Origin: Seison nebaliae
Taxonomy: Eukaryota
NCBI GenBank assembly: GCA_023231475.1
Contig: JALJEE010001312.1
Coordinates: 1-64,000 of the forward strand
DNA length: 64,000 bases
Direction: 5' to 3'
A program made the translations under genes and the position numbers. Of the stretch, positions 2,824 to 51,985 are shown piece by piece. The number at the start of each line of letters is the position of its first letter. The first letter of the stretch is position 1. Below the pieces are notes generated by a model. The model was not told where the DNA came from. It saw nothing but the letters and a program-made list of their open reading frames with translations, and made no database searches.

Positions 2824-3981
2824 ATGTGTCGTATAATTTTTGTGAATAATCCTTTGCAATCGTTCAATAATTTACAATCTCAATTTGTTAAATTCGATTG
2901 CGCTAATCCTGAATTCTGCTTTCCACAATTAACCAATTTTAATGAAAATTTCCCGACGGAAGAAAATAACGAGAAAGCATGTTCTTTATTATCCCATTCT
3001 TCGCCATTCGTTAATCAAGATGAAGAAGAGCAATTAAAATCGATAGTAAATGGTTCATCTTTACTGTTACCAAAAAATGAATCTAATTTGAAAGCTGTCA
3101 ATCCAATCGATTGGGAAGAAAGAGAATCGAATGAAGTATCCCCCAAAATTCGTACAACAGAATTTCAAAAAATCTTTCGTAATTCATTTGTACATAAAGC
3201 ATTTTATGTCTGCACATATAATCAGAAGAAGTGTCTCTATTCAACACGTTCGAAGACGAGATTCGAGGAACATGCACGATCTCATTGTGGTTACAAACCA
3301 GTTCGATGTACCATTCCTGGTTGTAAGTATCGGACAGTTCGGGAAGGAGACATGAAAAAACATCTAATTATTCATACGGATATAAAGAATTTTCCTTGTC
3401 CTTATAAAAACTGTAGATTTCGGTTTGTTTTTCTTTCTTCATTTTAATCTTCGTACAATTTTTTATACAGAGCTCGATACCGCCAGGGACTTGTGATTCA
3501 TTTGAGGAAACACACAGGTCATCGACCTTATGTCTGTGAGTTTCCCAATTGTACATCAGCATTCACGCAGCCAGGAAATCTGAAGCGTCATCAAATCATA
3601 CATGCATCTAAAAAGAATCATCATTATTGTTGTAGATATTGTCCCTTTGTCCATCAGAACGAACAAATAATTCATCAACATATTGTTATATGTCCAAATA
3701 TGGTCATATCACAACAAACACAATCAGTCAAACCATATCATATATGTCGAATTTGTAATAAAATCTACAAGACGAAATGTGACTGGATTGACCATTTTCC
3801 CAAATGTAGCAAATCTATTAATAATTTGGAAGATTCAGGTATTGATGATACATCGACAATATCGACAGACATGGATAACTCACGACGAACCTCTCGACAA
3901 ATGGAAGAGTGTGAAGAAAAGAAGTTGTTTATCCCATTTAAGAAACGTATATTAAATGAGTATCTTAATAGTATCAAATGA
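2824..3981 (+). CDS. C2H2 zinc-finger transcription factor, 2 exons (intron 3423-3470)
   Basis: Multiple Cx2-4C..Hx3H fingers with HCGYKP/HTDIKNFP/HTGHRPY linkers; a 48-nt GTTTGT..ACAG intron joins CPYKNCRFR to ARYRQGLVIHLRKH in frame. Confidence 0.9.
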
Positions 3982-4538
3982 AAATTCCTTCACTTTCATA
4001 ATTGAACGAAACTAAAGAAGTTTATTTAAAAGTTGTTTTTTGAAAATTTCTGAATTTAATCCGATATCTATTATTATTTCTTGTGATTTGTCATTTCTAT
4101 AATAGAAATTCTATTAAGTCTACTCTCACCTTTCTTTATATATTATTGAGTTTTGTATCTTTTTGACAATTTTGTTTCTCATTCGCATTACTGCTACAAA
4201 TACTTTCATTTCATCATAACATATTCTTTTCCCGAAAAACTTGCATCATCGATTTCTATGAATTTGAAAATCAATCTATGAGATTTTAAAAATAATTAGG
4301 AGTGTCTAAAGTAAACTATCGATGCTTTTATCAAATTATTTTAGTTTCAAAATCAAACATTTTACGATTTCCCAATAAAATTTATATCAATAAAAAAATT
4401 CGTATTTATTAAAATTTTTTCTGTTATTACTTAATTTCGATAGTTTTAATATTATTCATTTCATATAGAAAGCAAAACAAATTGAGTGGTAAGTTGAGAA
4501 TGTGCTTTCCGTCATCTAACTATGACGTAGGAATGTGT

Positions 4539-6374
4539 TTACATTATCGAACATTGACACATCGCTTCAATGATATCCCTCGGCGATTCTTCGAATGTCT
4601 GAAATTTCTTTGTAGAAACATCTTCAAACTTCTTATCTGAATTTGCTTGCATACTTCCGCTTGGTTCATTTGCTTTTCCATTAAACTTTAATTTTTTACG
4701 ACGAAAACTCGAATATTTCTTAATAAATGATTGTTTCGTATCTTTATCTCGACGTTGAGTATGTGTATCGCAATCGAAATGTAATTTCGATGGTTTGAAT
4801 TGTTTTGTTAATTGGATTGTTCTACGAAAGAAGATTGGTAGTAAGTTATGAAGGTCAGGTATGAAATTGTCTTTTGATAAAGCCAATTGAGCAAAGACAC
4901 TAATCTCTTTCGCAGGAATATACCATGGCGCTAAAAATAAGAGACCAGTAAATACATTGACAACTGATGAATATGAATGGCAATCACAGAGAACATGTTC
5001 CACATTGGCGAAGCCGCTGTTGATAAGAATTTCCAATGCCATTTTCGATGATGTTAATTTTTGATGATTATCATTATTTGAATTGGTTTTGATGGAACAA
5101 GCCGTATATATGTCACGATCATTCATAAATATCTGCGGCATATCTGTATTATCTTGCTTTTTGATTTGAGAGGACCATTTAAATTCTTTTGTTACTGCTG
5201 ATTCTTTATTTTCATTAATTTGCATAATATCAGAATGGAGACTACTTTGTCGTTTTAATAATAAATTTTTTGTTCGATTAAATGGTTTAGTACCCAAATC
5301 TTTTGAAAGATGACGAACATAAGGATTCTCAATATCTTTATTCTCAGGAGAAATCTGATAAATATTTTCGACTAAATCAAATTTATTACCTACAAGCAAA
5401 ATAGGTAAAGTGGCAGCATCCAAATTATCACGACCTTCTTTGATCTCTTTCAAATAATTGTTAATAACGTCTAATGTGGAAGAATCTTCCAACGAATAAA
5501 CTAGAAGGAATGCATCTGCTTCGTTAATCGATATTCGTCTCATTGCGGGAAATTCGTTAGTTCCAGACATATCAACTAACTCGATGTAAAGTGATTCATT
5601 ACAAACGAATGTCGATGGAATAAATGGACTGTCATTGGCTGATCGTTTATTACGTGATGCACAAGTTCCAAAATGAAAATCGAATTTATAAATATCATCT
5701 TGTTGTGTCTCGAGATAATGTTCAACAAAGTTTTGAAAGAAGAATTGATGAAATAAACTCGTCTTTCCCACTTGACTCGCTCCCATGATGACGATCTTAT
5801 ATCTCTGTTGTGGGACTTGATCTTGAGACAAGGATGATAATATATTTTTCATCATAATAGTCGTATCTGATCCTAAATAATGAAATATGTTTTTATTGTC
5901 CATGTCTTTGTCTGATAGTGCAGCAGCATTTTTTTCCGTCGACAAATGACTCACAACCGACCGTTCGTTAATGGGATTGGTGGCAGATGTTAAGCCAACA
6001 TTCTTGTCATCTACTGTGGTCAATACTTGATTTCTTGGAGGATACATATTCTGTTTCCTTCTGCCACGTTTAGCATTAAATGATGAATTAAATCGACGAG
6101 AAAAGCTTTTGGTCATACCATTCTCCTTTGTGACTTGGAGAGATGAGTGTATAATCGATTTAGGAGAAGACGATTGAACAGTAAATGATTCTGCTTCTTT
6201 CGTTTCATACGACGTCGATGATGTTGATGAGATTACTGTAGTCGATATGGGTACTGTTGTTGTTGTTGTTGTTAATGTGGATGAGCAATTATTGCTGTTG
6301 TCAAGCAATTTTGTATTGAATTTGAGCATACTAGACAAGAGGGTATTTGCCTGCTCATCGGTGGTCGTTGTCAT
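4539..6374 (-). CDS. RASD/Rhes(Dexras)-like Ras-family GTPase with long extensions
   Basis: G1 GASQVGKT, G3 DMSG followed by FPAMRRISI (RASD/DIRAS signature), G4 NKFD, C-terminal CAAX CSIM. Confidence 0.8.
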   Translation of the reverse strand: MTTTTDEQANTLLSSMLKFNTKLLDNSNNCSSTLTTTTTTVPISTTVISSTSSTSYETKEAESFTVQSSSPKSIIHSSLQVTKENGMTKSFSRRFNSSFNAKRGRRKQNMYPPRNQVLTTVDDKNVGLTSATNPINERSVVSHLSTEKNAAALSDKDMDNKNIFHYLGSDTTIMMKNILSSLSQDQVPQQRYKIVIMGASQVGKTSLFHQFFFQNFVEHYLETQQDDIYKFDFHFGTCASRNKRSANDSPFIPSTFVCNESLYIELVDMSGTNEFPAMRRISINEADAFLLVYSLEDSSTLDVINNYLKEIKEGRDNLDAATLPILLVGNKFDLVENIYQISPENKDIENPYVRHLSKDLGTKPFNRTKNLLLKRQSSLHSDIMQINENKESAVTKEFKWSSQIKKQDNTDMPQIFMNDRDIYTACSIKTNSNNDNHQKLTSSKMALEILINSGFANVEHVLCDCHSYSSVVNVFTGLLFLAPWYIPAKEISVFAQLALSKDNFIPDLHNLLPIFFRRTIQLTKQFKPSKLHFDCDTHTQRRDKDTKQSFIKKYSSFRRKKLKFNGKANEPSGSMQANSDKKFEDVSTKKFQTFEESPRDIIEAMCQCSIM

Positions 6375-9300
6375 ATTTGCTTATCCGCTTCAATGGAGAG
6401 ATGAATTAATTTCGTGAAAATCGGAAAATTCTAGATAAGAATATTAAAAATCTTTCGATAATAGAAGAAGAAGAAGAAGCAGAAGAGCAAAATGAGGACA
6501 AAAAAATTAAAGTTACACAATTTATTAATAGTCTTACATTGAACAATAACAACATTTAGAATAATATTAATAATAATCATTCTTTCTATTAACATATCCT
6601 ACAAGATAATAATATATTTGAAACATTTTATTGATATTAGGCATCTGGTGATGATTAGAATGATGATGATATCTTCTCGAGAAAGAATTGCTTCTTCTAT
6701 GAATATCATAAGATGTCGAACGATCTCAATAATTCTGATAATACAAAATTACATATTTTACATTTAGCTAACTACCATTAAATATCTTGCCAATGAAAGA
6801 AGAAAAAAAAAATGTAATTTCGTTTTAACACTCCGAAATCATCACTCGATATATCTCGAAAGATTCTCAATATCAAAAAAATAAAATCTCTATTAAAAAT
6901 TCATATTTAGGGAAATTAAGTAAATTAATAAAATTGTTTTATTATGTCCTCATCTCGATAAAATAAGGAATTGTCCTAAGAACATCGAGAAAATAAGTCT
7001 TATACAATTGATTCGTTGATTTTTTTATTTCCATCCGTTGTTCCGATTCCATCATTTTATTTATCGTTGAAATGATTATACAATGTTAATTTGTTGGTTG
7101 GAAGTATTGCATGAAAGAAGAATGAGTGAATGAATTATATTTCAATTCTCTCTTTCAAAACATAAAAAATGTAGAGATTTCTAACATCTCCCATTTTCTC
7201 TACTCTCCCTCACTCCGAATAGAACACTTCCCGTTAAAACATACTATTATGTGTATATTATAATTAACGATAAAAGATTTAAAGGAATCGAATCCGTTAT
7301 AAATTTCACTGTATAATAATATCAAATTACTTCAATTAGTCAGTAAGTATTCCTTTGAAAATAAACTTAGGAGTGCTCCGCCAACTAACTCGTATTTAAG
7401 AAAGGTAATCTCCTAATATCTTCCATTCCCCTCAACCTAATAGATTATCTTCATCAAATCATCTTGTAAATCTTTCGAGAATTGGAAAGGAGAAAATGAG
7501 AGAAAATATAATTCATTTCATCTGTTAAGAGATTGTAAGAGATGTGTCATGTTATCCATGTCTATTCTCCCATAGCTAATGTGGAGATGATGGAAAATGT
7601 TTTCAATGCAATGTTGATAGTTTACTATTGAGAATGAATTAAATCAATGCATCATCATACACTTATTCATTATCAAACAATCCAACATATTCTTCCCATA
7701 TTTGTCATTCCTTCTTCTCTCATAACTGCACCATTTTCTAAACGACAATCAGATGGAATGTTAATAAATACGAAATGATAATAAAAAAGTCTCACCATTT
7801 CCTCATTTACGGCGATGACGAATTGACATTATGTTTGATTAAATCTGTGAAAATAATGATAGAAACAATGATGGGAAACATCATTAGTCTAACTTACATT
7901 TTTATATTTACTATATGAGACATTACATCATCTTGCATTAAAACAAACCATTCTTTGATATTCAGTAATGTGACAATTTTGTTTTTTAGGGACATAATTA
8001 TCGTTGTAACTCATTTGTCTTTTCTTCGAAGCTAATCACGTTAATAATAGAATCGTTATATCATTATCTACTTTACATCCTATAATAGGCAAACCGAAGT
8101 AAATACTTTTCACAATTTATATACCTCTCAAAATGACCATAATAGTTATAAAAAAATTAACAACTTCCACTGCTATCTATTGTTTTTCCTTTCATTCCGA
8201 ACGAAATTACTGATCCATATTTCTAGTTTCTAATTCGTTCGTTTTCCTATTTTTCTTCTCATCAAATTCATGTAATTTGAAGTTATTCAATCATATTTTT
8301 CCACCTGAGATATTAACAAACTATCCTTCGAAAACATTCTCCATGCAATATTTAGTCTTTTGACTATCCTTCAAATTTTTCATGAGAATTCCCTCACGAG
8401 ATTTAGTTGACACAAAAACCAACTTCTTATAATCTCAAATTAATTTTGAAATTCCTTATAAAAATATTGACGAATCGTCTTTCCATCGTTCCTGAGATTT
8501 TTAAAGAGCAAAAATAATTTTTCTTTATCAAATAAATATTCGATTTCTAAAATTTAATAGATCTCGTTCAATTTGGTCGAAATGCAGAACACAATAATTT
8601 CAATTGTTCACAAATTGTCCACTGTTACTTCTCTGTATCGAAGAAAAAAATGAAAACGAAATGTTGAAAGTTTGGGAAATGCAGAGAAAATTGTTGAACG
8701 AAATTCGTAAACTTTCCGTTGATGCATACTTGTATGTAATGCATTGAACTTACATAAAATATTTGGTTTGTCATTGAATAATTATTGCACATGTCAGGTC
8801 AATATTGTTACTTCTCCATCTTCGATCAACTTCTGAACATATAATCTGCAATTGATGCCATACTACGCTGCCATAGAGAAGGAAAACCATTTCCAATTTC
8901 TAACATAATCACCAATCCAAAAAAAAATTCAAAAAAGAAAATCGAAAAACTTCATAATAACAAGTCATCACTAGTCAAGTATTAATTATAAACAAACAAA
9001 AAGAAACTTCTTTCTTTGGAGGAGGAAATTTTTCGTTCTTTTGGTGTAAAAAAATACAAAAATCTAATTTTCTCGTGACTAACAAGAACAAGTGCAGCAT
9101 CAATGCAAAACAGACAAAATCAATTTATCAAATTATTTATTCTCCAGAAATTTTAACTAATGTTGTTTGAGAAGTAAATAGAGGGAATTATATTTTGATT
9201 TATCAGAAAATTGACATTTTCCTCCTCTCAAAATACACTTTAACATATTTGAAAGTTACATAACTAAAATATTAAGAAATTTCCTCCTATTTTGTTAAAA

Positions 9301-9580: not shown

Positions 9581-12150
9581 TCATGAATCGGCAAATTTAT
9601 CGTTGCTATCGGAGGATGAACGATGATGAATGTCGTTCTTGTTGTTGTGGTGATTGTTTTTCATATTTTCTTCTTTTATTCTTTTCTTCTCAGACACAAT
9701 TCGTAGATTAAGAGCATAATTCTATGAAATTCAATGAGAATAATTATATTTGACCAGTCAATCAAGCTTAGTAAGGAAAATAAACTTCAATCATATTTAC
9801 TGATAAGAAACGAAATCTTTTCTCCAATTCATTCATTGTCGTTGACATTTCTAACTTTTCTAACAACGACGATGATTTCATGTCATTCCTACAATTTTTA
9901 TTATTAGTAAAGAAAAGTTAAATGGAAAAGATTTGGAAATGTATTTTCGTAAGAATTATAACCTATAAGAAAGTCGAATATTCTTCGAAAAACAAATTAG
10001 TAATCTCTTCTCATTTACTAATTTCATTTTCCTTAAATTCTCATACTTACTCCCAATATCCTGATATTTTGCACGAAATTGACTTGCTTGTTGTTCCAAC
10101 CTCTTCAACTTGAATTTTAACTCTTGCATCTGTCCCAATAATCGAGGTATGGCAGTTTTTCGATGGAATTGCACGAATGAACTGAACAATTGTTGTTGTT
10201 GTTCTTCTGATCCCCGTCCAAAATATGATAACGGAAATAATTTAGAATCGGAATTACTAGAAAATAATAAATTAAAATATTAAATTAATGTGAAAGAAAC
10301 CAATGACGACGAAGAAAAAGTTTCAGATCTTTAGTAATTAATAGAATAGTGGATGAGTATTGATTAGGAAATATAGTTAATCCGATTAATGTATTTTGAT
10401 GATTCAATGAAATTTGCATTAAGGAATTGATAGTTGAAGGCATAAATTTCGGATAATAATCAACATGGTTTAGTTTAATATCGAAATTCTGATTATTCTC
10501 ATACGAAATTTGCTGGGATAATTTCTCTCGAACTTTTCCCAATTGACTAAAATAATTGACATTAATTGCAATGAGATTACCATTAAGGAAAGCATAATAT
10601 GAATTGAGATTACTCAGATTTCTCATTAATATGACTCGATTGTTGGAAACATGCCCAACGATCTCCTTCGACTCAATAACTGCTAAATAAGAATTAAATG
10701 TCTTCTCAATTATTACGAATGAATGAAATATCATTGACGATGTAATTTTCGATGGATCGATATGAGGAGTAACAATGGCAATTGCCAAATTATCATTCGG
10801 ATTACCTAGAGCGATAATACCAATCGCTTCTTCATCACCATAATTATTATCATTATTTTCCGGTTTCCATAGTAACGGACCAAAAATTTTTTTTCTAGGA
10901 CAAAATCGATTTCTGTCGTCCTCCACAATTACACCATTGGACATTGATGTTGGTAAATCACCGACATCAACATCACTCTGTATATATTCATCTTCCTTCG
11001 CCAATAACTGTAAGATATACACGTCGCAAGACGAGGTGAGAATGTAGAGAGGATGTCGAATTTTTTCGATCGAATTCTCCACCACCATTCGTCCACAACC
11101 AACATCAAATGAGATACAAGACGAGTCAACTGCTGAAAATGAATGTTCGATATCATTCGTCTTCGTTTTTAAACAATTACATTCGGTCACTTCATCGCAA
11201 CAAGAGAAATTGGTAGATATTAGACTATTCTGTTCGACACAAGTACCATCGTCACAGGTGAGGAAACCATCAGATAATTGAGATAGACAACTAGTTGTTG
11301 TCTCTTGTGAATTTTGTCGATATATCGATTCACCAAAAAGATCTTGTTCTTTATTTTGTAAAGATTCTTTCTTTGTCGAAATATCGATGACAACACCGGA
11401 AGTCGTATATTTAATCAATTCCATATCATTATCTGGTGTAGTGGATCTTGAAAAAGAGACTGGTTGAACATTTGAATTGATCAATTGAGAGAGATTAATA
11501 TAATGAAAGCATCGGAATAAATGATCGTCAACATTCTTTCCATAAATATGTAATTGATTACAATTTATTCGAATAATCAGATATAATGTCGGATAGTTAA
11601 TCAGTTGAGATTGAAACGATTTGATGTCATTAATGTTTAGTGAAGTATCAGTTAGATCGAGTTGTAAGATTGTTTCACCATTTCGTATTTGTCCCGTAGT
11701 AGATTCGTGGTTGAGATTGAAAACATTAACTATCTTCTTCCCGTAAACACAAATTGACGATCCATTTAAATGGTTCGAATCGACAACATACAAGATCTTA
11801 TCATAACGATCGCCTTCTAACAAATTGACGGTGAATGACTTCTTAAATAGATTCTTCCACAAATTGAGAGATGTCTCAAAATTCCGAATAGATTGATGAT
11901 GCGCTTGAAAATTCTTAAGATTCTCCTCTAATAACTTCACTGAAATCGAATAAATCGCATTTTCGTTTCTACTGAAAATGTAAAGGAATTTCTCATCAGA
12001 AACAACCATTCCATTAGTGTCATGCCAAATCCGTGTATCTTTATCCTCATTCTCTCCATTCTCAATAACTTCACCTATATCGATTGATGACGATTCTAAT
12101 AAATCTTCGATATCATCTTTAGATACTTGAAGAATATCAGACGAATCCAT
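9581..12150 (-). CDS. NUP88: Nup88-like nucleoporin, 4 exons (introns 10257-10300, 9889-9962, 9722-9785)
   Basis: SFDVG, PLYIL and KIFGPLLWKPENNDNNYGDE resemble Nup88 propeller motifs (FDFG, PLYIL, GPLxMxP..DNYG); C-terminal coiled coil; GT-AG introns keep frame to TGA at 9581. Last exon is less certain. Confidence 0.65.
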
Positions 12151-14423
12151 TCGAAATTTTTTTCTTTTAAATAAATTTCTTTCAACAACTAAATTTTTAT
12201 TTTAAATTCATCTAAAAGATTGAGGACATGCAGTGCCTTTACTAAATAATTTGAAAAATTAAAGACTCACAAGTATTAGGTAAAATTTAATTCTTCAGTT
12301 CTATGTTTAAAATAATGTCTTTCACTCCCTCTCCTTTTTTTGATTACTAACATAATTAAATGATTCAAATAAAAATAAGTTATTATTTCCGTTTTTAATT
12401 ATTTAGCTCACAACAACCAACAAAATTTACTAAACTTAAAATTTTAAATTTAAATAAATATAACTTATTTTCTTTTCAATTGATATAAAGAATATATTTT
12501 GCTTTTGTTAAATCGATATAGAAAACAATTTCTTTTCGCCCGTCACAATTCGCCGTCGAATGGGTTTCATTCGAATGATATTGAATTTATCTAATATTTA
12601 TTTACTAATATTCAATTATCTAATGATACGATGTATAATGATTCTAGAAAAAATACTCTATTTATTATTATCTGTCTTTATTTTAATTCTTATATTTTTT
12701 TAAATAGACAGTCCGTCGGTGGTAGCCATAATTTTAATTTATGTTTTGTCTATAAGTAAATTACATTTGTACAATCATTTGTTGTTATCACTCTAACTTG
12801 TTCTCCCTTCATCCTAACATACATTTAGTTGATAGGTAGCAACATTCATCTTCTCTCCATCATCTTGTGCATTGGAAGAAATAATCGATATATTAATTCT
12901 AATTTTCTTCTTTACATTCAAAGAACCCATATTCCACAAATAGATAATATAATTTAATTAAACTTCCAAATTCTATGGAGACTAATTTCTTTCAAAACTT
13001 TTTATCCGTGGGACAATAATGTTGAAAATAGAATGAGTTTGGTGCAAATTCTTTATCACTCACTCGTCGTTCTAATAGGATTATCTGTTAAGAAGAATTA
13101 TTTTACTTCTTAATAAGCTAATTTGGGGAAATGTTACTCGTAAGGATTGAGAGACAGATATACTCCCTTATGAGCTTTCGTCTCATTTAGAAGAAAAACT
13201 GATATGTCTACATCTTTTTACGCCAAATTGATATACTGTTTTTTCAAAATTTTCAAACAGATATATTCCTTTTTTTAAATACTTAACGAATAAAATAATT
13301 AGAAAAAACGATTGAGTCGTTTTAATATTATTCTATGTAATAAAATATTATCTAAAAATTAAAACTATTACGTAGTGAAGATCTTATTTAGTTAAGGTTT
13401 TATTTCCACTTTTATCTATGGTTCAGAAAAAAACAGAAAGAATAATTTTATAAATGATGACATTGGTATGCGATTGTAATGTGAAAATGAAATGTTCATG
13501 TACATTGTTGTGAAGCGGTCAGGTGGCATTTAAAAAATACTGATTGTAGGATTGTTTATGGATTGTTACTCTCTTCTACAACTATATTATTTATTTTAGA
13601 TAAATAATTTTTCACTAAAACGACATTTTATAATTGAATACATTTTAGTTCCAACTGGATATTTATAAACATTTTTAGATATTTTTTTCGCTCAACTTTT
13701 CTAGAATTTTTTTTGTTTTCTATTGTTGATACATGTTCACAAATTGTTTATTTTTTAATTTTCTCAATTTCTCTCAAATGTTATTATTATGTATCACAAT
13801 CATTATGATTATGTTAAATGTTTTTACAACAGATTCTGTTGGACAGAAACGCGATAATGCAACATATATATTATATTCTTTTTCGGAAGAGAATACTATT
13901 TGACTACCATATTTTGAGTTCCTTTAGCATCGCCAGCCTAGAATGATGAAGTTTATTCTGAATCTGATGCAGTCGCAGATAACAAGTCAGCAAAACGAAA
14001 TTGCATAAGTGACAAAATCCAATTTCTAATTCTATTTTATCTTCAGTATATTGTATTTTAGATAAATTTATTTGCTTCCACGATGTTGATGCTTGCAGCT
14101 AAGTTTTAAATCATTTTATTCTTCTGAAAAAGTTCAATTAAATTTAAATAATTTAATTAAAAGACCATAATTGAGACGATAATTTCTTTGCTTGGGATAA
14201 TTATTACCCAAGATATAATTTTTCTTTTAAAATCTAATTTAAAATTTTAATGTTTATCTTCTTTGTTTGTTAGATTTAAAAAAAGAACATTTGTTAAAAA
14301 AATTCCCAAAGATATCTTATTCACAATTGTTCATAACCAATCATATGTACGTATATGTAGATCTGTTCGATAGAGAAGTACGTATATGAAATTGGAAAAA
14401 TTAGAAAGTATAAAAGTGAAATA

Positions 14424-14976: not shown

Positions 14977-16892
14977 AAGAATTGCATAGGGCGTATCTCT
15001 CGTAGGTTTTAACGAATATTCTAATTCACTAGATTAGATTCTTTCACTAATACGAATCATTCGTGCTCAAATTAAGTCGAAGAAAGAATAGATTATGTTG
15101 GAAGGTGAAATTGAAGGAAATATTGTTTGTTTTCGTAACGATTATTGTTAACAACGTTTTCCTTAATAAGAAAGGAGAGAAGTCGTGGAAAAGAATATCA
15201 TCAAATTGGAAGTTGCCAAGAGAACGAAAATAAAAGGATTATTTTATAACATCTTTTATTAATATTTTGTCTATTCTTTTCTAGTCGATTGATGATGAAG
15301 ATATCACATATTCTTTCTCTCATTAATATATATTAATTTAATATTCATCTCATTCTCATACACATTCATATCGATATACGTTCTATATTATTTGCTTATT
15401 ACAAAATAGGAAATATGCGAAGACTTACAGCTAAAAGATGAATATATAATTTTCCAATTGGTCTTCTCATTATTATAAGAGATTCTCTATACGCGACTCA
15501 CTTATCAATATGACCTATTGTAAAAATCTATTTCGTCCTTCCCACTTCCACCCAGAGATAACACCTACAACATCATCAATCTTCTTGTTGTTGAACAGAA
15601 AAATTAAAAATTTCTTCCAAACACCAAATGAACATTTTCTTTTATTTTCTTTCTTTATTCCTCATCTATTTCCCATGTGTTCATCTTCAATAATCGCCTT
15701 CTATTCAATTACTTCAAGTGATTAGACACAATTATGTTTTTCCTCTTTTTTTTACTTAAAATTACAAAATTACATAAGATAATGTAAATGAAGATGAAAA
15801 GATAATTCAACGTAGTCAGAAATTGTACCGTTAAGAACGGCAATTTGATTTAGAAAATCAACGAAGTGAGCGACGAAAAAATTCAGTGGAAGAAATGAAA
15901 TATAGTTATCGATATATATATATATGAGAAATGTTATGGAAATATAAATAATGTTCGATAATTTTCCTTTTTTTTTGTCCTTCAATAATAGTTTAAGTTA
16001 ATTTTTAATTAACAACTTTTTTTCTTTTTCCTTTCTTTCTTTTATGGGCAATAATATATTTAATCAGTAATAATCAAAGATAAAAAATTCTGATTTTTGT
16101 CTACCTGAAAAAGGAGGGTTGATTGACGTTATGTCCGTGGCTTTTTATCTCCATTGATTTTCCTATGACGTTTTTGTCCTCTTCCATTTATATAAAATTT
16201 ATATTAGAGATTCTTTCATTAAATTATTTCTTTTCTCTACATATTCCTTCTTAATGGAAAGCTGAGACGAAGGACAAAAGAGCCATAAGACAGAAAAGAC
16301 ATATGATATTCCATAGAGTATTTTTGAGATAACAAATATCATTTCTCTTACGCAATTATATTACGATTAAAAATACATTTTTACATATTCCTCCAATTTA
16401 TCCACAGTTGACGACATATTTCCATTGACAACTTTATCACAAGATGTATGAAAACGGAATTACATAAATTAGATTTTTTAATAGAAAGACGTCATTTTTA
16501 AAATAACCATACATAATATTGAGTGTGTGTAGCGCATTGGTCTATGCACGTTCCTAACGTCACAACGATTGCATCACTGAACGTAAGAAAGGTGATAAGT
16601 CAAACAATATTCAATTACCCAGATTAGGATTTCACAAAAAAAAATAATACAAATAAATTGAATCATATGGCTTTTTTGTCACCGTGATTGTTCTGTGTCA
16701 GGACTCTTGTGTCTCATGACTCTTTTGTCCTACAATTGGAAATTTTCTTGGATTTTGTAAATAATTTCTCTCATCTCTATTTTATTATTCATTCAAACGG
16801 TTTTATATACGTAATTTTATTCATATACTGATTTTCATTCTATTACATAGAATGAACTTTTAATAATTTTCGTTAACATTCCTAGTCATCAC

Positions 16893-21829: not shown

Positions 21830-23254
21830 ATGGGTTCCGATAGCAAGTTAGATCGTTTTCATTCCCGTTTTCATATTTACATCAATCATCAATTTACTAG
21901 ACAATCAAAAGAGAAGAGAACTTCCAAACAATCGTCACATGCTCAACAGCCACCTGAAGTGATGGGCTCATCTCTCGCTACTGCCTATCGTCCAAATAAA
22001 GATAAACATCATGCTTTATTACGTGCAATTTGGAATGTGAATCGACAATTAATGCCAAATGAGAAGTTGAAGGAATTAAGAGAATTAGTCGAGACAAAAG
22101 GACAAGATGTTAATACTATGTGTGATATTTTACACGAACAGACATGCCAACCTATAGCTCAAGCACCACCGTTAATTATTGCCTGTTTTGAAGGTGATGC
22201 AGACATCATTAAATACCTAATAAGTGTTAGTAAATACGTTAAATAGACAATGCCAAAATATTTTCCTGTTATTAAACATCATTAGATTGGTGCTGATCCG
22301 AATTTAACGGAAAGTGAACATCATCTCACACCGATTCATATCATATGCGATGCTGAGTATCATGGACAAACAATTCAAGTTACAAATTATTATTAATTTC
22401 CATTTTTACAGATCATTCTCCATTTGTACAGCAACGAGATCGTGCAGAAATACTTCGATCTCTTTTAAAGAAAAGTGCAAATCCTAATCATTTAGACAGA
22501 AGTAATATGGCAGCAATACATAAGTTTGAAGGAATTATTTATTTTAAAGAACATTTATCCTCTTCTCATATTAGAGCAGTAATACATGATCGACCAGACT
22601 GCGTAGCTGCATTACTTGACGCGAAAGCTGATTCGAATGCATCATTTCTCGGTGACACTCCATTGTCAATTGCAGCAAGACATAATCGTAAGAAGATTGT
22701 CGAGTTCTTTAAACCTTTTTCTTTATTCTTCTTCTTATTATACCTTTTGGCTAGTCTATTATTAAGTCACAAAGGTACGAATGTTAATATGAAAAATGAT
22801 CAAGGTGGAACTGCATTACATTTTGCCGCTGCCGGTTAATTTTCATTTAATTTCTTCTTCTTCTACAACTTCTTATTTTCCATCGTTCTTTCAGCAATCG
22901 TTGATAGTACGGAATGCGTTGAAACTTTAATTCGACATAACGCTAAAGTAAATTCCTCTGATAATCGAGATAACACGCCAGCAATGGTAGCAGCGTTCTT
23001 TAACAAACCGAGAATTCTAACGACTTTGATTAAAGCCGGATCAGATATTACGGTAAAGAATAAGGAGGGTTAGTCACCCATTTGTATGTGGATATCTTAA
23101 TAATCTTCCAATTATAGATAAGGATGTTTATTCAATCGCTAATGATAAAGATTACGATGAATGTGCAGAGATTGCTGCAAAATACTTAGCGAAGAAAGGG
23201 ATCAAAGTCGATGATTTAACGAAACAAATGAAAGATACGAAGATTACAAAATAG
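21830..23254 (+). CDS. Ankyrin-repeat protein, 8 exons
   Basis: PPLIIAC, GADPN..LTPIHI, GDTPLSIAA, GGTALHFAA, NTPAMVAA repeats; seven short GTT..AG introns give a continuous frame from MGSDSK to TKITK*. Confidence 0.88.
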
Positions 23255-32481: not shown

Positions 32482-33413
32482 ATGTTGTTCGTCAACTTTT
32501 TTCTATTGTATGTCATTTTAGCACTTTCATGGGAATCAGAAGCAAAAGGTTTAATTTACCTTTTTCCAATATTCGTTCATACATAACTTTTGTTTTAATT
32601 TCCTACCATATCTTTTTGTTAGATGACGGCCAAAAACGAGGTGGATGGATGATGCCTTATGGTAGGGATTTGGAGAATGTGGAGAAAATTATTAAGAACG
32701 ATCTAAATAATCTTCTATTAAGTTCGTATTTATTTGATTAATTTTGAATCGAATTTTTTCATAAATTTCTCAGAATCTAAGAGAGGGGGATGGATGATGC
32801 CTTATGGAAGAGACTTATCTAATCAAGGTACTATTTTTTTCTTGAAATTTTATCTAATTCCATATTTGGTTAGTTAAAAGAGGAGGATGGATGATGCCTT
32901 ATGGACGAGATCTTTCCTTACAAACTTCTCGTCGCGCCGACATAAGTTTGAGTTTTGGTTGAACTTTTATTTTCTAAATTTTAATTGTTAGAAATGCCAT
33001 ACAATAATGCTTGGACCACACTGTATGGACGAGAAATAAAAGAGAACAAAAGTTTTCTAATTTTTGTTTATTAATTTTATATCATAAAACATATATATTC
33101 AGAAAAACGGACAGAGAGTTATAGTTATGATGTAAAGAATGCAGATGAAACTTTGAATGTAGCGAAAAAAATGGCCACTGCTCGTAATGTTTGGAATACT
33201 TTAGGTCGTGAAAGAAAAATCGAGTTTCTGGCTAGGCTGCTAGCTCGAGCAGAGAACGAAGATGAGTTGATGAATGATATAAAGAACGATCAGAAACCAA
33301 AAGAATTGAATGTTATTCTGAACCACCAAAGACCAAGAACCTTTAACGAATGGTTATCTGGTTTGGCAGATCCAACAAGAAGCGGTTGGTCTATTGCATA
33401 TGGACGAAAATAA
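32482..33413 (+). CDS. Neuropeptide precursor, Wx3Yamide-type, 6 exons
   Basis: Signal peptide MLFVNFFLLYVILALSWESEA; 3x KR-GGWMMPY-GR, NAWTTLY-GR, R-NVWNTL-GR, R-SGWSIAY-GRK*. Exons 32482-32548, 32623-32721, 32774-32827, 32874-32945, 32992-33051, 33103-33413. Confidence 0.9.
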
Positions 33414-34125: not shown

Positions 34126-35881
34126 TTACAAAGATAAGCGATTGATTTTATAAACAAGTGTTTCCATACATTGTTCGGGATTGACATTGACACCAAACGT
34201 AGCAGCTAAGTTTAACATATTCGCTGTTAACAGTTCATTTTTGTACTGCAATTGATATATTTGGTCTTCCAACTTATCTCTTTCACTCTCCTCTACTTCG
34301 GGTTGTTTCTCTTCTGTTGCCAGTTTCTTTTCTGCCATTTTCTTTCTAACTTTAAGCAATTCATTTTCTTTTTGGGTTTTTCGTACCTTTATCCTTAACG
34401 ATATATTCTCATCAAAAACTGATATATATGCATTCGCTTTGTATAAAGTCGTGAGGAATGGAACGTAATCACTGCCGTTAGCATTTGTAGCTTTCTCTTG
34501 ATTGACGTAGGTCTCTAGTTCCTTTGAGACATAATCGTATTTTTTCCTCAAATCACTTAAATCAATTTTCAATTTCACATTCTCCACAACCGCTTCGCTC
34601 CATGTTTCATTTTCATTTAAACTTTTAATTAGCGATTCTAACATAATAACTTGATCTTTTATTTTATTATTTTGCTCAGTCAACTGCATTTTTTCAGTTT
34701 CATATGTTTGTATTATCATTTTGAGATCAGCTTACATGAAGAAGAATTTAAATTTAATGTGTCTACTAGAAATTATTAACCGATTAAACTGCTCGAAGGC
34801 TTCTCCAATTTAGTTTTGATAAAATCATCGATAATTACTTGATATTCAACTGATTTTTGACACACCACTATGGATAAAAACTTGTTTAACATCGCCTTGT
34901 ATCGATTACATTTTACCAACAATCTAGAATTGTCTTGATGAGCATTTTTAAATTCTAAAAATTGCCGGTGATATTTGTCGGAAATCTTATCATTCTCATT
35001 TTCTAATTCTTTCGTTAATTTATAAAGCTTATTAGAGACATCCGATTCTTTACCATATGTTTGCAGTATATGTTGTATCATCTCCTTCCAAATATCCTGT
35101 TTTAATTGAAAATATGTATTAAGGAAAATATATTTCAAAAATTCTAGATTTTTAATAGCAATTGTCAAACGATTTGATCTTGTGGCGTCATTGCTCTAGA
35201 AAACTGGTTATGCAAATTCGGTAAATTTGCTCCACTTACCAAATTTTGGAAGGTGTCAATATTTGTCTTTCTTTCTGTAATCAAACACATGTCAGTAGCT
35301 AAATCTTTTAATCTTTTGTGTTTGGAACAAGTTTCGTTGTTTAAGAATCTCAATCGTTCTAGTTATGATAGTAAAGAAATAATATAATAAGTTTTTAGGT
35401 AAATCATTAAAACCTTCTACTTTGTGAAGTGTTTGAGGAAGTTCTGTAATTACATTATTTAAATATTTGATATGTTCTTGAACTTTATTTGAAATGAAAT
35501 CATTATGGTTTGTAGCATAAAGCAGTAGTTTCTCAATCATCACATTTCTACTAATTTTCTTTTCTTCAAATTTTTTGATTTCTTCATTGACTTTATTTAT
35601 CTGATCAATATTACAATCTTCTATATTCAAATGTTTTAAGTTTGATTTGATATCTAACAGAACGAAAAAAATAAAAATATAAATAAAAATATTCATTGTA
35701 TTCAACCTGCTAATTTTTCTATTATGTTGTTTGCTAAAAAATTAAATTCTTCAGATTGGTTACCTAATTTACCTTCGACATCAGCCATTAGATTGTTCAT
35801 GGCGGTAATCTTTCCATAATATTGATCGTCCAGCGTCTGATGGAAATTCTTTGTCAATTTTCCACAAATTGAATTATCCAT
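34126..35881 (-). CDS. Uncharacterised coiled-coil protein, 5 exons
   Basis: MDNSICGK start at 35881; four short GTT..AG introns link ORFs 35292-35705, 35165-35353, 34776-35168 and 34126-34719 in frame; heptad-like E/K/L/Q composition. Confidence 0.7.
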
Positions 35882-37330: not shown

Positions 37331-37388
37331 ATGAAGGATATATAATTTGATAATAAGAACAAAAATAATGGAGTGGAGAATTAAATTG

Positions 37389-37660
37389 TTAACATTGCAG
37401 AAATTCCGGAAACGGAAACGGCGATGTCAAAATGTTTTCCGACAACGAGAGATACTTCTCAAGCAGAACCCCCGGAAAAAGAGGTAGTTCTACAATGGAA
37501 AACATCAGAACTCTGCAAAAAGGTCTAGGATGACCGAGTAAGATTCGAATGCACCGATTATACGCTTTGTCTAAGGAGTCTATGGATTTATTGGAAATAC
37601 CAGGGCTGCTTGGAGTCCATAGAAACCGCAACAGAAGGTAAAGAACAATTTTATCTTCAA
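37389..37660 (-). mobile_element. LINE ORF2 C-terminal fragment
   Basis: LFFTFCCGFYG, then (frameshift) LDKAYNRCIRILLGHPR..LMF..LPLF, resembling the post-RT YG..W..L..AYN..R.LL..PR..MF pattern of non-LTR elements. Confidence 0.55.
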
Positions 37661-40600
37661 TTTGAGAGGGAGATATTTACATCTATGATGAAAGGAGTAG
37701 AAGCTTCTTATGAATTTACGACAAATGCTGTCAACAAACGAAGAACTTCTTTTCCTTTTATCGATCTTTACCGAATCAAACTCGTTCGATGCATCCAGAT
37801 GAATGTAATATTTCCGAATATCTATGTTTTACAATTTTTCCATGATCTTAATGAGACAATTGGAAACACAAATCGGACGGAATGATTCGACCTCATTTTG
37901 ATTTTTTTTCTGATTCTTGGGAACTGGTACCACTAAGAATGATCGTATATCCTATATGATTATTTTTCTTTCTTCAACATGAATATAATCAAAAATACTG
38001 AATACAATTTAGAATATTTAAAATGAATTATCTGAAATAGGAAAGAGGAAATAAAAAAATTTAATTTCATTTTAAAATTTTGGTGGAAATTTTATGAAAT
38101 CTCGAAACTTTAATTTCCTGTTCTACAGGTTTATTCTACTCGTTGTACTGACTCAAGGGAATTACGATTTAGCGAATTTTTGAATGTTCATTTTCATGAG
38201 AATTATGAGAAGGGGACACGTTTGAATCAATATTGAGAAGATATTTGAATTCCATGTGGAGATAGAATGGAACGACACGAGACAAGAAGATCGATAGTAG
38301 TAGCAGTTGATTAGGGAATTTTATGAATATTAACAGATGCTTTATTTAGAATGGGAATATTAGAGAGAATTGGAGGAATTATTTGTCGGATAACTAGATG
38401 ATTTATTATGAAAAGGGCAAACTGAAGGAGAGAATGGAAGCAATATAACTTATTTTCCATTTAATCGTCCAACAACTCAAAGTGCAACCGGCAGAGATGA
38501 TGGATACGATATTGATGAATATGATTGAGAGTTTCAAATAAAATTCCTACCTTTCATTTGACTGTGTGGGGAAGAAACATTGTTGTCAATAAGTATTCAA
38601 ATGGAAGAATTACATGAAAATGGTAGTTCTTTCCATTCATTGGGGATTTTCTATCGTTATATCATTCTCATGATGTAAATGTCATACTAAATTAAATGTA
38701 ATTGATGAACGAAGCGACAATTGAACGAAATTCAACATTAAAAATTCTTTATATTATATCCAGACCCAATTTATTTATTTTGACGAATCGTTATCGTATA
38801 ATTGCCATGTACCGTTCCAACGGTGATTATTATTAGCGATATCACAACTATTTCTCGTTCATTGGTAGAGGAAATCTGAGAGAAATTTTGTTTTTCCCAA
38901 TTTTCAAAAAGAGGAGAAAATCCTTAATTATGATAATACTGATAAGATTCCCGTTAGAATTCCTTCATTGACATTCAATTCTCATTTATGACTAATTATG
39001 GAGTGAGGTGGTTCCTCCAAATTGCATGCTATCGCCCAAAATTGGGATCATCATATTCTTCATCATCTTTTCTATTTATCTTCACCTTCTCCATCGAATT
39101 ACGTATTCATTCGGTCGATTATAATGTAATTGACTGAAAGTTTTCAATTTGATTTCCATCTTAAATGAAACTGATGATAATTCTAATTTTTTAATTGGGA
39201 ATTTTAGTTTCGAATAACATCATATTCTAATCGGATTTGTGTCAAATATCATTATAATTTCATTATTTTATTCTCATACGAAAAATATGAGAAAATTCTT
39301 TCAAATTCTTTTCTACATATTATTATTATTATTATTATTTATTGCTCACAACATATTGAGAATTGAATGAGGAAATATTCGGTCGAATATGAAAATATGA
39401 ATGAAATCAATGGGAATCAACTGTAATAAATAATATATATTTAAAATTAATTTGATTCACATTTTGAATGAAATGAACTTGAAATGTTGATAACTGTTTG
39501 AGGTAAGAACGGTATCATGTCATGTAGATATATTCGTCGAATGAAGTAAAGAAATTTAGTTCATTAAATTGTTGGTGGAGAATTGTCGTAATCGATTGTC
39601 TATTTGATTGATGGAAGTGGCGATTCTTCAGACGTTTTAAGGGAATATTAATTAATTATTTTAAAGAAAAAAAGGAAACAGTTTCGCTGATAAGTTCATT
39701 TAGTTGGAGATGTGAATGACGGCATGTTAATCGACTATTGTGATAATTATCTGTAGGCGATCGTGCAGAACTTGTGAAGAGGAATATTTGAAGGGGAAAC
39801 CAATCACCATAATATGGATGTCATAATTCTATTATAATTTGTTGACATTAAATGTTCAGGAAAGAAACGAACAATATTAGACAAATTTTATGAATGAGAA
39901 AAAAAACAATTTCTCCAATTGCCAATTGTTGGCGGGTTGTGGAAACGATTTCCCCGAATAATTGCTTCAATAAAAATTCATGAAATTTCCAATTTTCTAA
40001 AAAGAGGTTGATGGTTAATGATTTCGGGGAGAATGGGATGAGAGGAGTGAGGGGATGGAATTGAATAGAAGAAGAGAATGATTATTGATGATTAATATAA
40101 GTTGGATGCATAAAAGAAAGAAGGAAGATGAAGAATGAGAATAAATTAGTTAAAATTAAGAATCACTAAGTATTTATGTAGTTAATTGAAAAGTGAATGA
40201 GTAGCGAATGAGCAAGAGGGGGTGGGCAGGCAAGAAAGGCGCTTATCCCCATTTCGTCTTCATTTTAAATTGTTTAGAGAAGAAGGAAAACAATTTGTCC
40301 TCTCGGCGAGCATATGTGAAAGAAACCGTCAAATTGAACAAAATCCCTGGTCAATTGTAAGGAAACAAATTAAAGAAAGAAAAGAAAAATTTTCGTTCTT
40401 TTTTTTTTGTGAGAAAGAATGAGTATAAAGTGCAACAATCGAAAATCTGCTTTCAACAACAATAAATGGACACCACGACATCAGGATTTAAAATAATTCT
40501 TCCATTCTACATATATGTTCGATATATGCGCAGTTAGAACAATCGATAATAATAAGAAGGAGGAATTCTTTATTGAGAACTATCCGATATTATAACAATT

Positions 40601-48068: not shown

Positions 48069-48372
48069 ATGAAATTTTCAATTTACATTTTAACCGTTTT
48101 CCTTCTCGTCGTTCTGTTGGTGGGGAAGAGTGAAGAGAAATCAGCCAACTATCTTTCGGAACGAGATGATATCGGTTAAATTTTTAATTTTCCTCAATTT
48201 TTTTTAAAATATTTTTCTTTCAGATAATGGAAATCCTGATTCTTTCCTTCATGATGGAAATCGTCGAAAACGTTTCCTGTTCGGTAGTGCGCGTGAAGAG
48301 GCAGATGAATTACGTGAAGAATTGAATGAGGACAAGGTCGAATTCAACGAGGAACGAGTAGGAAAGAAATAA
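48069..48372 (+). CDS. Small secreted prepropeptide (84 aa), Glu-rich amidated mature peptide; 2 exons (intron 48175-48223)
   Basis: MKFSIYILTVFLLVVLLVGKSEE signal-like N-terminus; RRKR site; FLFGSAREEADELREELNEDKVEFNEERV-GKK*; AATAAA at 48471. Absent from the ORF track because it is split by the intron. Confidence 0.82.
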
Positions 48373-48489: not shown

Positions 48490-49966
48490 TCATACTTTCG
48501 GTTCTTTCCATTGAATTGTTTTCAAATCAATTCCTTCTTGAACCATCTCCCATAATGGACTTTAATTACAAAAAAAATAATTGAAAATTGAAAAATATTT
48601 AAAATTATTTTTAAAAGAAAAATATTTAAAAATATTTTTAAAAGAAAAATTTTAACCTCATTTCTCTTAATCGTTTGACATGATAAATTATTTTATTCGC
48701 TGTAAATTCTATATCGGCTTCTGTTGTATATTTGTCGATACCGAATCGAATTGAAGAATGAGCTAAATCTTCATCTTGTCCTAATGCTCTCAATACATAT
48801 GATGGTTCAAGAGATGCACTTGTACATGCCGAACCGGAAGAAAGAGCGATATCTTTCAATGCCATCAATAATGATTCGCCTTCGACATAAGCGAAAGAAA
48901 GGTTAATACAACCGGGATAAGTATGTTCAATTGATCCATTTCGATAAACATGACTCAAATTTTTCGTAAGAATATCTAGAAGTAAATTGGACAAATTTCG
49001 AATTCTTTTCAAATATTTTTCTTTATTTTCTTCACATAATCGTCCCGCTTCTCCCATTCCAACAATTAATGGAGTTGGTAATGTACCTGAACGTAAACCA
49101 CGTTCTTGACCTCCTCCTGAAATTTGTGGTATTAATCGAACTCGAGGACGTCGACGAACATAAAGAGCACCGACTCCTTTTGGTCCATAAAATTTATGGG
49201 AACTGATCGACATCAAATCGATATTCATTGAAGAGACATTAATTGGAATCTTTCCAAATGCTTGAGCTGCATCTGTATGAAAGAATATTTTATTATTTCG
49301 ACAAATCTCTCCAATCTCATTAATTGGTTGAATGACACCAATCTCATTATTTACCATCATGATGGAAACGGCGATGGTTTCTGAAGAAATAGAATTTTCC
49401 AATTCTTCTAAATTTATTCGACCATCATTCTCCACTGGGAGATATGTTATACGGAAACCTTTCTGCTCTAAATGACGACAACTAGCTAATACACATTTAT
49501 GTTCCGTTTGACAAGTGATCAAATGTCGTTTCTTTTCCGATTGATAAAATTCAGCGATTCCTTTAATGGCTAAATTATTCGATTCAGTTGCACCACTCGT
49601 CCATATGATTTCTTTTGATTCTGCTCCAATTATCGATGAAATTTGCTCTCTTGCTTTCTCTACTGCTGCTTCACTCTCCCAACCATAAGCATGAGTTCTC
49701 GAATGAGCATTTCCATATCTCTCACGGAAATATGGCATCATTTTTTGGATTACTCTCTCATCAACACGAGTAGTGGATTGACTATCTAAATATAATGGAC
49801 GTCCATCTACATTCCCTTTTCGATATGGTGATCGTTCACCACTCTCATCATAATCATCATTCGCTTCATAATCTTTCGGAATTCTGGTGCCATAACATCG
49901 GGATGGAAGACTGAGAGATTTGTGGAGGGAAAAGTTGATAAATCGTTTCAACTTAAATTTATTCAT
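48490..49966 (-). CDS. NFS1: Mitochondrial cysteine desulfurase, 2 exons (intron 48560-48656)
   Basis: YLDSQSTT, GNAHSRTH, SISSHKFYGPKG (PLP Lys), SSGSACTS (catalytic Cys), spliced C-terminus MSPLWEMVQEGIDL; basic N-terminal presequence. Confidence 0.97.
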
Positions 49967-50153
49967 TCATCAAACAATCAATTCTCTTTTTTCCTTTCAA
50001 AGAAAAATATCTAATTTTATCCATAAAAAGAAAAATTTGAAAATTAAAATTATTTTCAAAGATTAACAGAAAATAATGAAAAAAAATTATTTTGGAGAAG
50101 AAAACGGAAAATAATCATAAAAAATTATTTTGGAGAAGAAAAAAGAAAAAATT

Positions 50154-51985
50154 TTAATTCGAAGAAAAATTTTTTTTATTTGGTTTTTTATTATTTTTTC
50201 CAATCGATTTAAATCCATAACGAGTTTGACGTTCATCAGTTCGATTTCTAATCGAAATAGATCCCAAATCGACGGGTGGTGGTTCGGTGAAACCGAAAGA
50301 CGATGCCACTTTCTTCAGATCGAGTGAAGCGATTTTGAAGACGGTTTTCATCGAATGTGAATTATATGAACGAAGATAAGATTTGAATGCATCTCGTGCC
50401 GACATATGAAGATAATAATTGCTCTTGATTAATTTCTCTAATTGTTCTTGAACATTTGGAATTTTATTCCAGGAGAAATCAAATTCCTGTAATTTCACTT
50501 TAGATTTCTTCAAATATTTCAAAAATCCCATTTCTTCCGGTCTTAATATCATCAAAGCATTACCTGATGCACCTGCTCTCGCTGTTCGTCCCACGCGATG
50601 GATATATTCTTTCGGATCATCAGGAGGATCATATTGAACAATCCAATCGACTTGTGGAATGTCTAATCCTCTCGCTGCTACATCGGTACACAAAAGAATT
50701 CCTTGTTCGATTTTGGAAAATTGAAGAAAAGTTTGAGTTCGTTTCGCTTGTTTCTGACGTCCCTAAATATCCGAAAAAAAATTATTTAAAAAATTTAAAT
50801 TAAAAAATTAAAAGTTTTTTCAATTAATAACTAACATGAATACAAAGTACAGGAAGATCGATATAATTGAGTAATTCATGGAAATATTTCACAGCGAGAC
50901 ATGATGACATGAAGACCATTAATTTCTTTTTACGATTCCGTCGAAGGAATGTGTAAAGAAGTAAAAACCGTTTCTCTGATGGAGCAATGACATATCCTTG
51001 TTCCAATCCTTCAACTGTCGCCTCGTCAGCTTCATCATTCACTCCCATATATAACGGTTCTTTCTTAAGTGACATTTTTGCCAAATCTTCAATTCGTCTC
51101 GTTTGAGTTGCAGAAAATAACATTGTTTGTCTCGTTTCTATAAGTTTATATGGAAATAAAATGGTTTTTAAATTGAAGAAAAATGAAACTTGGGAGAAGT
51201 GAAATTATTTGTTTCATATCCTCTTCGAATCCGATGTCCAATAATCGATCAGCTTCATCGATAATAAGAACTTGAAGATTTTTTACAAGGAAATTATCTG
51301 TCGATCGTAAATGATCGAGAATTCGTCCCGGAGTACAAACCAAAATGTTAATTCCTTTTTCTAATTTTTTACATTCGTCTGATCTATTACAACCACCCAT
51401 ACATAAACCGAATGTGTGATGATGATATTTTAATATATCTTTCAACACACCAAATATTTGAATACATAATTCACGTGTGGGCGAGATGATGAGAACACCA
51501 GTGCCATTTCGTGGCATAAATTTCAAACGATGAATAATTTCAATTGCAGGTAAAAGAAAAGCTAATGTCTTTCCACTTCCAGTTTTCGCTGAAGCTAAGA
51601 GATCTTTTCCTCCAATTAATGGATCTAATGATTGCTCTTGGATTTTTGTCATAAATTTCATTTGCATATCATTCAATCCTTTCAATGACTTTTCACATAA
51701 AACGTCATTGCGAGATGCAAATTCTGTTTTAGTCAATAATGAATTATCTGAATTATTTTTCTTCGCTTCATTTATCTCCTTCAATTCTTCTTCGATTTCT
51801 TCATCAATTTCCACCGTTTCATTCTTTACAATTTCATCTTCTTCTTCACTTTCTTCTTCATTATCTAAAATTTCATCTTCTTCTTTTTCTAAAATTTCAT
51901 CTTCTTCACTTTCTATTTCGTCTTCAATTATCTTTTCTTTCTTTTCTTTTTCTGATTTCTTCGAATTTCTTCCTTTCACTTTCAT
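50154..51985 (-). CDS. DDX18: DEAD-box RNA helicase DDX18/Has1, 3 exons
   Basis: [54 protein letters not shown]; two GTT..AG introns. Confidence 0.96.

What the first reader, a model, noticed from the sequence alone, without database searches (positions are those of the whole stretch)
3423..51190. Rewired 5' splice-site consensus: almost all short introns begin GTT, never GTRAG
Seen: of 37 introns (44-97 nt) placed by reading-frame or conserved-motif continuity in nine genes, 35 start GTT (GTTAAA, GTTAAT, GTTAGT, GTTTGA, GTTTTC, GTTCGT etc.), one GTC (eag 44122) and one GTA (32828). Positions +4 to +6 are poorly conserved. Known: animal U2-type donors have a purine at +3 (GTRAGT) that pairs with the U1 5' arm. 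AT richness alone should give A about as often as T at +3. Inference: this lineage has an altered donor-recognition system, such as a variant U1 5' end, changed U6 ACAGA-box contacts or altered U1C/LUC7/Prp8, or length-dominated intron definition.
Basis: partly seen in the sequence, partly recalled or inferred. Interest (0 to 1): 0.9.

Follow-up and report, generated by a model that had tools for sequence, protein, structure and literature searches.

The report
Rotifer with rewritten intron start signal
In this DNA from the marine rotifer Seison nebaliae nearly all predicted introns start with GTT, while the same introns in related rotifers start with GTA, which likely means that this animal changed the small RNA that reads intron starts.

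Summary
The window is Seison nebaliae. I placed 35 introns (44-97 nt) in 8 genes: 33 start GTT, 1 GTC, 1 GTA; the background after GT is 39.5% T. 23 of them reproduce public Seison proteins without mismatch. Alignment to foreign homologs, blind to +3, recovers 11 donors (10 GTT, 1 GTC). In bdelloid-like eag loci 46 of 46 counted donors start GTA. Seven eag introns sit at the same position and phase in other animals, GTA/GTG there and GTT in Seison, so old introns were rewritten. Only +3 flipped: G is at +5 in 13 of 35 and at +6 in 0 of 35, so the register is not shifted. The likeliest cause is a one-base U1 change (ACUUAC to ACUAAC, about 50%), as in Entamoeba. It is untested: no genome, snRNA gene or junction read was reachable. 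Nine literature searches found no report for Seison or any animal. The scan has noted GTT donors before, in protist DNA only.

The parts
3423..3470 (+). Intron of a C2H2 zinc-finger gene (CDS 2824-3981), 48 nt, donor GTTTGT
   Evidence: Restores the finger and the frame; Pfam zf-C2H2 below cutoff; no in-frame alternative donor
21830..23254 (+). Ankyrin-repeat gene, 7 introns, all GTT: 21847-21900, 22226-22285, 22379-22431, 22524-22574, 22704-22754, 22835-22894, 23069-23117
   Evidence: Public protein P0241 (SNEBB_009277) maps over 348 of 348 residues without mismatch
32482..33413 (+). Predicted neuropeptide precursor (GGWMMPYGR repeats), 5 introns: 32549-32622, 32722-32773, 32946-32991, 33052-33102 (GTT) and 32828-32873 (the single GTA, after exonic AAG)
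   Evidence: Frame and peptide-repeat continuity only
34126..35881 (-). Gene without Pfam match in its last exon, 4 GTT introns: 35706-35654, 35413-35359, 35170-35097, 34780-34731
   Evidence: Frame continuity only; one open frame of 507 aa
42556..47497 (+). eag (KCNH1/5-type) channel gene, 14 introns with donors at 42635, 42910, 43092, 43805, 44122 (GTC), 44296, 44543, 44710, 44899, 45401, 45655, 45840, 45980, 46118; 13 GTT
   Evidence: P0003 (SNEBB_009281) maps without mismatch; 9 donors recovered by 4 of 4 foreign homologs; 7 positions shared with other animals
48175..48223 (+). Intron of a small predicted secreted-peptide gene (48069-48372), 49 nt, donor GTTAAA
   Evidence: Frame continuity only
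48560..48656 (-). 3' intron of a cysteine desulfurase (NFS1-like) gene, 97 nt, donor GTTAAA at 48656
   Evidence: Joins to give LREMSPLWEMVQEG; Pfam Aminotran_5; no in-frame alternative donor
50154..51985 (-). DDX18/HAS1 helicase gene, 2 GTT introns: 51189-51138 and 50835-50763
   Evidence: P0124 (SNEBB_009284) maps without mismatch; both donors recovered by 4 of 4 foreign homologs

Best explanation
The predicted introns in this Seison nebaliae window begin GTT where the same introns of other animals begin GTA or GTG, and the likely cause is a single compensatory base change in the 5' arm of U1 snRNA (ACUUAC to ACUAAC) that would pair with U at +3. Shown at sequence level: +3 is T in 33 of 35 introns; old intron positions were kept and their donors rewritten; the other donor positions keep the bdelloid-like pattern in the normal register. 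Inferred: these are ordinary U2-type introns defined across 44-97 nt, the weak-exon/short-intron system of rotifers makes +3 a near-obligatory third pair, and the reader of that base flipped in the Seison line. Untested: the sequence of U1.
For: 33 of 35 GTT against 46 of 46 GTA in bdelloid-like eag loci, Fisher p=1e-20, with the caveat that those 46 come from one gene. Of GT sites 40-100 nt upstream of true acceptors, Seison uses 33 of 48 GTT but 1 of 24 GTA; the bdelloid-like loci use 40 of 64 GTA and 0 of 47 GTT. Seven of 14 eag introns share alignment column and phase with foreign introns, all GTA/GTG there and GTT here. Other positions run parallel in Seison and bdelloids: -2 A 23/35 vs 22/46; +4 A or T 28/35 vs 41/46; +5 G 13/35 vs 27/46. 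A change confined to one position is what one base change in a pairing RNA predicts (inference). In-frame GTA sites 9-24 nt upstream of eag donors 44296 and 44899 are passed over according to homology. Precedent: Entamoeba GUUUGU donors have a complementary U1 ACAAAC (bioRxiv 10.1101/2022.06.08.495308, Results read). Scored against ACUAAC the true donor beats all competitors in 23 of 29 introns, against canonical U1 in 16 of 29; this is circular and only a consistency check.
Against: No Seison U1 sequence was seen. Most lineages with atypical donors keep a canonical U1: yeasts (69 species), Giardia, Thecamonas, Micromonas and the animal Fritillaria (PMC13326754 passages), though these are +4 or non-GT changes. 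Unchanged U6 ACAGA can itself contact a U at +3. No junction reads; 12 of 35 placements rest on frame continuity. One window and 8 neighbouring genes only. An annotation-free scan gave only a non-significant GTT excess in the window (odds ratio 1.3-1.6, p 0.11-0.53). One donor (44710) is disputed by homologs.
Confidence: 0.5

Rival explanations
1. U1 is canonical; the +3 U preference is set by altered proteins or RNA modification (U1C, LUC7, SNRNP27K, Prp8, snRNA m6A or pseudouridine), helped by a G-U contact with unchanged U6 ACAGA.
For: Canonical U1 is kept in most lineages with odd donors and in Fritillaria, where m6A patterns changed instead. SNRP-27 sensitivity depends on +3 in C. elegans (PMC11347140 passage). 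ACAGA spans intron positions 2-6.
Against: The U6-paired positions are weak in Seison (U+4 13/35, U+6 14/35, near intron composition), so a U6-led system would be strict only at its wobble position. GTA, which pairs best with canonical U1, is nearly excluded (1 of 24 sites used).
Confidence: 0.28
2. The U6 ACAGA box changed so that the base opposite +3 is an A and pairs with U.
For: U6 lies opposite +3 after hand-over from U1; one base change would also flip only +3 (inference).
Against: ACAGA is retained in Entamoeba and Fritillaria; it is part of the catalytic core (established knowledge).
Confidence: 0.08
3. +3 is no longer read; introns are defined by length and composition, and T at +3 reflects T-rich intron composition.
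For: Introns are short and uniform (median 52 nt) and 51% T; the donor carries little other information.
Against: 33 of 35 against at most 53% expected, p=1e-7; neighbouring +4, +6, +7, +8 are split between A and T; bdelloid-like introns of similar composition keep A.
Confidence: 0.05
4. Canonical U1 reads these sites in a shifted or bulged register (GT-T-AAGT), as for rare human GTT donors (Roca and Krainer, recalled).
For: GTT starts are the mark of such sites; earlier scan notes describe them in protists.
Against: A shift puts G at +6. Seison has G at +6 in 0 of 35 and at +5 in 13 of 35 (p=6e-5).
Confidence: 0.02
5. Misplaced boundaries, or a local quirk of this window that is not genome-wide.
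For: No junction reads; the window's contig was not found in the held part of the published transcript map; donor 44710 is disputed.
Against: Homolog-blind placement gives 0 of 11 purines at +3; 8 unrelated genes on both strands agree; the same aligner returns GTA/GTG in other animals.
Confidence: 0.07

Closest known systems
Entamoeba GUUUGU donors with co-evolved U1 (ACAAAC); Roy and Bowser, bioRxiv 10.1101/2022.06.08.495308 (abstract, Results parts 1-2 of 3, Discussion part 1 of 2 read; supplements closed)
   Same: U at +3 is the near-universal donor base; register normal, G at +5.
   Different: Entamoeba is an intron-poor protist with a strict six-base donor (88-90% GUUUGU) and both +3 and +4 changed. 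Seison is an animal with intron-rich genes (14 introns in eag); only +3 is fixed, GTTTGT is 1 of 35, and its U1 is unknown.
Fritillaria borealis non-canonical introns (PMC13326754, passages read)
   Same: An animal lineage with genome-wide departure from the usual splice signals.
   Different: There 95% of introns escape GT/AG and the U1 5' end is conserved. Seison keeps GT..AG in all 35 placed introns (a placement requirement) and changes +3 of old introns.
Shifted or bulged-register GTT donors (human, Roca and Krainer; recalled, and named in earlier scan notes)
   Same: Donor begins GTT.
   Different: Those are a minority class with G at +6; Seison has none with +6 G and GTT is the majority class.
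Bdelloid-like rotifer donors GTA(A/T)GT
   Same: Short AT-rich introns, weak exonic side, near-invariant +3, shared intron positions.
   Different: +3 is A in 46 of 46 counted donors, T in none.

Membership tests
U2-type spliceosomal introns | GT..AG ends with a pyrimidine-rich 3' part | tested here: met
   35 of 35 GT..AG (required in placement); for 32 tabulated, -3 is C or T in 27, A in 5, T-rich upstream
U2-type spliceosomal introns | Purine at +3 as in the animal consensus GTRAGT | tested here: not met
   1 of 35 purine, 0 GTRAG
U2-type spliceosomal introns | Removal shown by spliced RNA | not testable with these tools
   No RNA run could be laid; laid holders behaved as DNA
Entamoeba-type transformed donor | U at +3 | tested here: met
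   33 of 35
Entamoeba-type transformed donor | Strict GUUUGU hexamer | tested here: not met
   GTTTGT 1 of 35; 21 different hexamers
Entamoeba-type transformed donor | Complementary U1 5' arm | not testable with these tools
   No genome held; no Rfam match in the window
Shifted/bulged-register donors | Consensus moved one base, G at +6 | tested here: not met
   +6 G 0 of 35, +5 G 13 of 35
U12-type (minor) introns | Donor RTATCCTT (recalled) | tested here: not met
   No donor begins GTATCC or ATATCC
Introner-like new insertions | Lineage-specific positions and mutually similar sequences | tested here: not met
   7 of 14 eag positions shared with other animals; intron bodies look unrelated by eye, no formal repeat test run

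The most novel reading that the evidence does not exclude
Seison is the first animal known to have recoded the U1:donor base pair: an intron-rich genome rewrote +3 of its inherited introns from A to U in step with a U1 5' arm reading ACUAAC, the mirror image of its GTA-strict bdelloid relatives.
Probability: 0.47. Interest if true: 0.9.

Novelty: new variant of a known kind. Interest (0 to 1): 0.78.

Why it matters
Transformed donor signals are described mostly in intron-poor protists and yeasts, where few sites must follow a change in the machinery. Here an animal with many introns per gene appears to have flipped a near-invariant donor base at inherited intron positions. How thousands of sites and their reader cross such a valley (two U1 forms, a permissive phase, or a protein change) becomes directly testable, because assemblies and mRNA-seq for two Seison lineages exist (PMC8351084) and relatives give the ancestral state. 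In practice, aligners and gene finders trained on GTRAG are likely to mis-handle this genome.

Tried and rejected
No whole genome is held. No RNA holder listed; runs X1 and X2 covered introns and spacers like DNA, X6 and X7 laid nothing; this is no evidence on expression. Rfam: 0 matches in the window. U1 search in the records of L001, L006 and L013: records not held. Published GMAP transcript map (PMC8351084 supplement 2, held cut at 19,906 rows): the hit on contig k141_3999 was chance, since its 42 gaps fit no offset of the window (best 5 of 40); two more signature searches gave only rows whose neighbouring gaps do not fit. The unseen rows and supplement 1 (not read) may bear on RNA support. 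In rows shown, GMAP wrote 71 of 77 distinct 30-100 nt gaps as deletions rather than introns (my hand count). From recall GMAP does so when its splice model scores low; without a control this is a hint only. Annotation-free scan: T versus A odds ratio 1.3-1.6 in the window (not significant) and 0.32-0.42 in L001+L006 (p 0.0002-0.012). -1 G and +5 G tend to exclude each other (2 both, 11 and 11 single, 11 neither; p=0.07): trend only. No fixed branch-point motif was evident. Rows dropped from the bdelloid count: L007 and L013 (duplicates of L006); 9 of 12 L001 calls (duplicates of L002); one L001 GC call that L002 resolves as GTA; one L001 36-nt GTC call with 3 of 8 upstream identity; L004 (no introns aligned, not run); L012 and L014-L016 (not bdelloid-like; no GTT donor among their 18 calls). 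Seison U1C, LUC7, Prp8, METTL16 and SNRNP27K could not be searched for lack of a query sequence.
Full report
Source. The window is about 30% GC. Three genes match public Seison nebaliae proteins: eag SNEBB_009281, DDX18 SNEBB_009284 and an ankyrin protein SNEBB_009277. Each maps to the window without a mismatch once introns are removed. Seison is an epizoic rotifer with a genome of about 46 Mb and compact genes (PMC8351084, passages). No whole genome was held.

Observation. I placed 35 introns of 44-97 nt (median 52) in 8 genes on both strands: 33 GTT, 1 GTC, 1 GTA. After GT, the window has T in 39.5% and A in 24.5% of 5,445 sites; inside 32 intron bodies 16 of 30 GT sites are GTT. 33 of 35 is far above either (p=1e-11 and 1e-7).

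Are the boundaries right? 23 introns follow the public proteins (22 GTT, 1 GTC), but that annotation may have learned the same signal. I therefore wrote a spliced aligner that asks only for GT/GC..AG and gave it foreign proteins: Capitella, Adineta, Lingula and Bombyx eag; Rotaria, Ornithodoros, Phallusia and Tribolium DDX18. All four agreed on 9 eag and 2 DDX18 donors, 10 GTT and 1 GTC. They disagreed with the annotation at one site (44668 GTG instead of 44710 GTT, in a divergent loop) and made scattered low-identity calls in Seison-specific stretches. 25 of 34 introns tested have no in-frame purine(+3) alternative within 45 nt. Junction reads were not available, and the contig was not found in the held part of the published transcript map. 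An annotation-free scan was too noisy to confirm the excess by itself.

Comparison with relatives. A metagenome scan with Adineta vaga eag returned 16 unnamed loci; L001 and L002 reach 92% identity in the best segment, and I call L001-L003, L005-L011 and L013 bdelloid-like from protein identity. The same aligner placed their introns. After removing duplicates and two doubtful calls, 46 of 46 donors begin GTA. They come from one gene and about 12 positions, so they are not independent. Their introns are similar in length and composition (47% T, 33% A). Seven of the 14 Seison eag introns share alignment column and phase with an intron in these loci or in L014/L015, whose best match is Capitella eag; every foreign donor there is GTA or GTG and every Seison donor GTT. 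The introns are inherited and their third base was replaced.

What changed. Only +3 flipped. Seison versus bdelloid-like: -2 A 23/35 and 22/46; -1 A or G 28/35 and 36/46; +4 A or T 28/35 and 41/46; +5 G 13/35 and 27/46; +6 T 14/35 and 30/46, weaker in Seison. G at +5 is enriched over intron bodies (p=2e-8) and G at +6 is absent, which excludes a shifted register. Among GT sites 40-100 nt before true acceptors, Seison uses 33 of 48 GTT and 1 of 24 GTA; the bdelloid-like loci use 0 of 47 GTT and 40 of 64 GTA. This looks like discrimination for U, not loss of reading. The two exceptions both follow an exonic G.

Mechanism. Canonical U1 presents ACUUAC to GUAAGU; the fourth letter faces +3. Changing it to A gives ACUAAC, complementary to GUUAGU. 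This is the simplest cause of a one-position flip, and in the one described +3 U lineage I found, Entamoeba, U1 did change. Against it, U1 stayed canonical in yeasts, Giardia, Thecamonas, Micromonas and Fritillaria, and U6 ACAGA can contact U at +3. I give the U1 change 0.5, proteins or modifications with canonical snRNAs 0.28, a U6 change 0.08, relaxation 0.05, shifted register 0.02, and artefact or local quirk 0.07. None of the machinery could be examined.

Prior art. Nine full-text searches returned no description of Seison donors or of a +3 U consensus in an animal; the library lacks most subscription papers. The Seison genome paper mentions 'splice' once, about gene prediction, and 'Seison' with 'spliceosom' gave 0 papers. 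The 263-species intron taxonomy (PMC11347168) has no hit for Seison, Adineta or GTT in its main text. PMC10125929 was seen as passages only and says nothing on Seison donors in them. Earlier scan notes report GTT donors in Bonamia and shifted GTT classes in foraminifer-like and other protists, none in this genome; I did not check them.

Verdict. A real and striking sequence pattern with a strong comparative control, probably unreported for animals, with a mechanism that is one Infernal search away. New variant of a known kind; interest 0.78.

Noticed in passing
L001-L011, L013 (eag loci): The bdelloid-like donors are themselves unusually strict: A at +3 in 46 of 46, no GTG, with weak exonic consensus.
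   Followed up: partly
window 35772 and about 35239, minus strand: Two canonical-looking donors (AG|GTAAAT with an AG 39 nt later; G|GTAAGT) lie inside predicted exons of the 34126-35881 gene; good test sites for whether GTA donors are ignored.
   Followed up: no
window 32482-33413 +: Predicted neuropeptide precursor with signal peptide, three GGWMMPYGR copies and further YGR-ending peptides.
   Followed up: no
window 380-570 +: Four or five FGY(V/A/I)P/R repeats after KR or similar sites; looks like another neuropeptide precursor exon.
   Followed up: no
window 54979-56577, 56637-58109, 59301-60800, minus strand: Three long intronless ORFs share an N-terminal GVC(C/M)TNA motif that recalls the Cys box of ubiquitin-specific proteases (recalled); no Pfam match.
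   Followed up: partly
window 18712-19590 -: Intronless homeobox gene with QQYMVG, which I recall as Not-type.
   Followed up: no
window 36700-38300: Multi-copy element: contig depth 5-20 times that of the flank to its left, with many variants, in runs X1 and X2.
   Followed up: no
window 4542-6380 -, 10288-12201 -, 16851-18410 +, 52480-53922 -: Long intronless ORFs (Ras-like, unmatched, BTB/KCTD-like, unmatched) next to intron-dense genes.
   Followed up: no
PMC8351084 supplement 2: GMAP wrote most short Seison introns as deletions (71 of 77 distinct short gaps in rows shown, hand count); transcript gaps cluster at 42-65 nt.
   Followed up: partly
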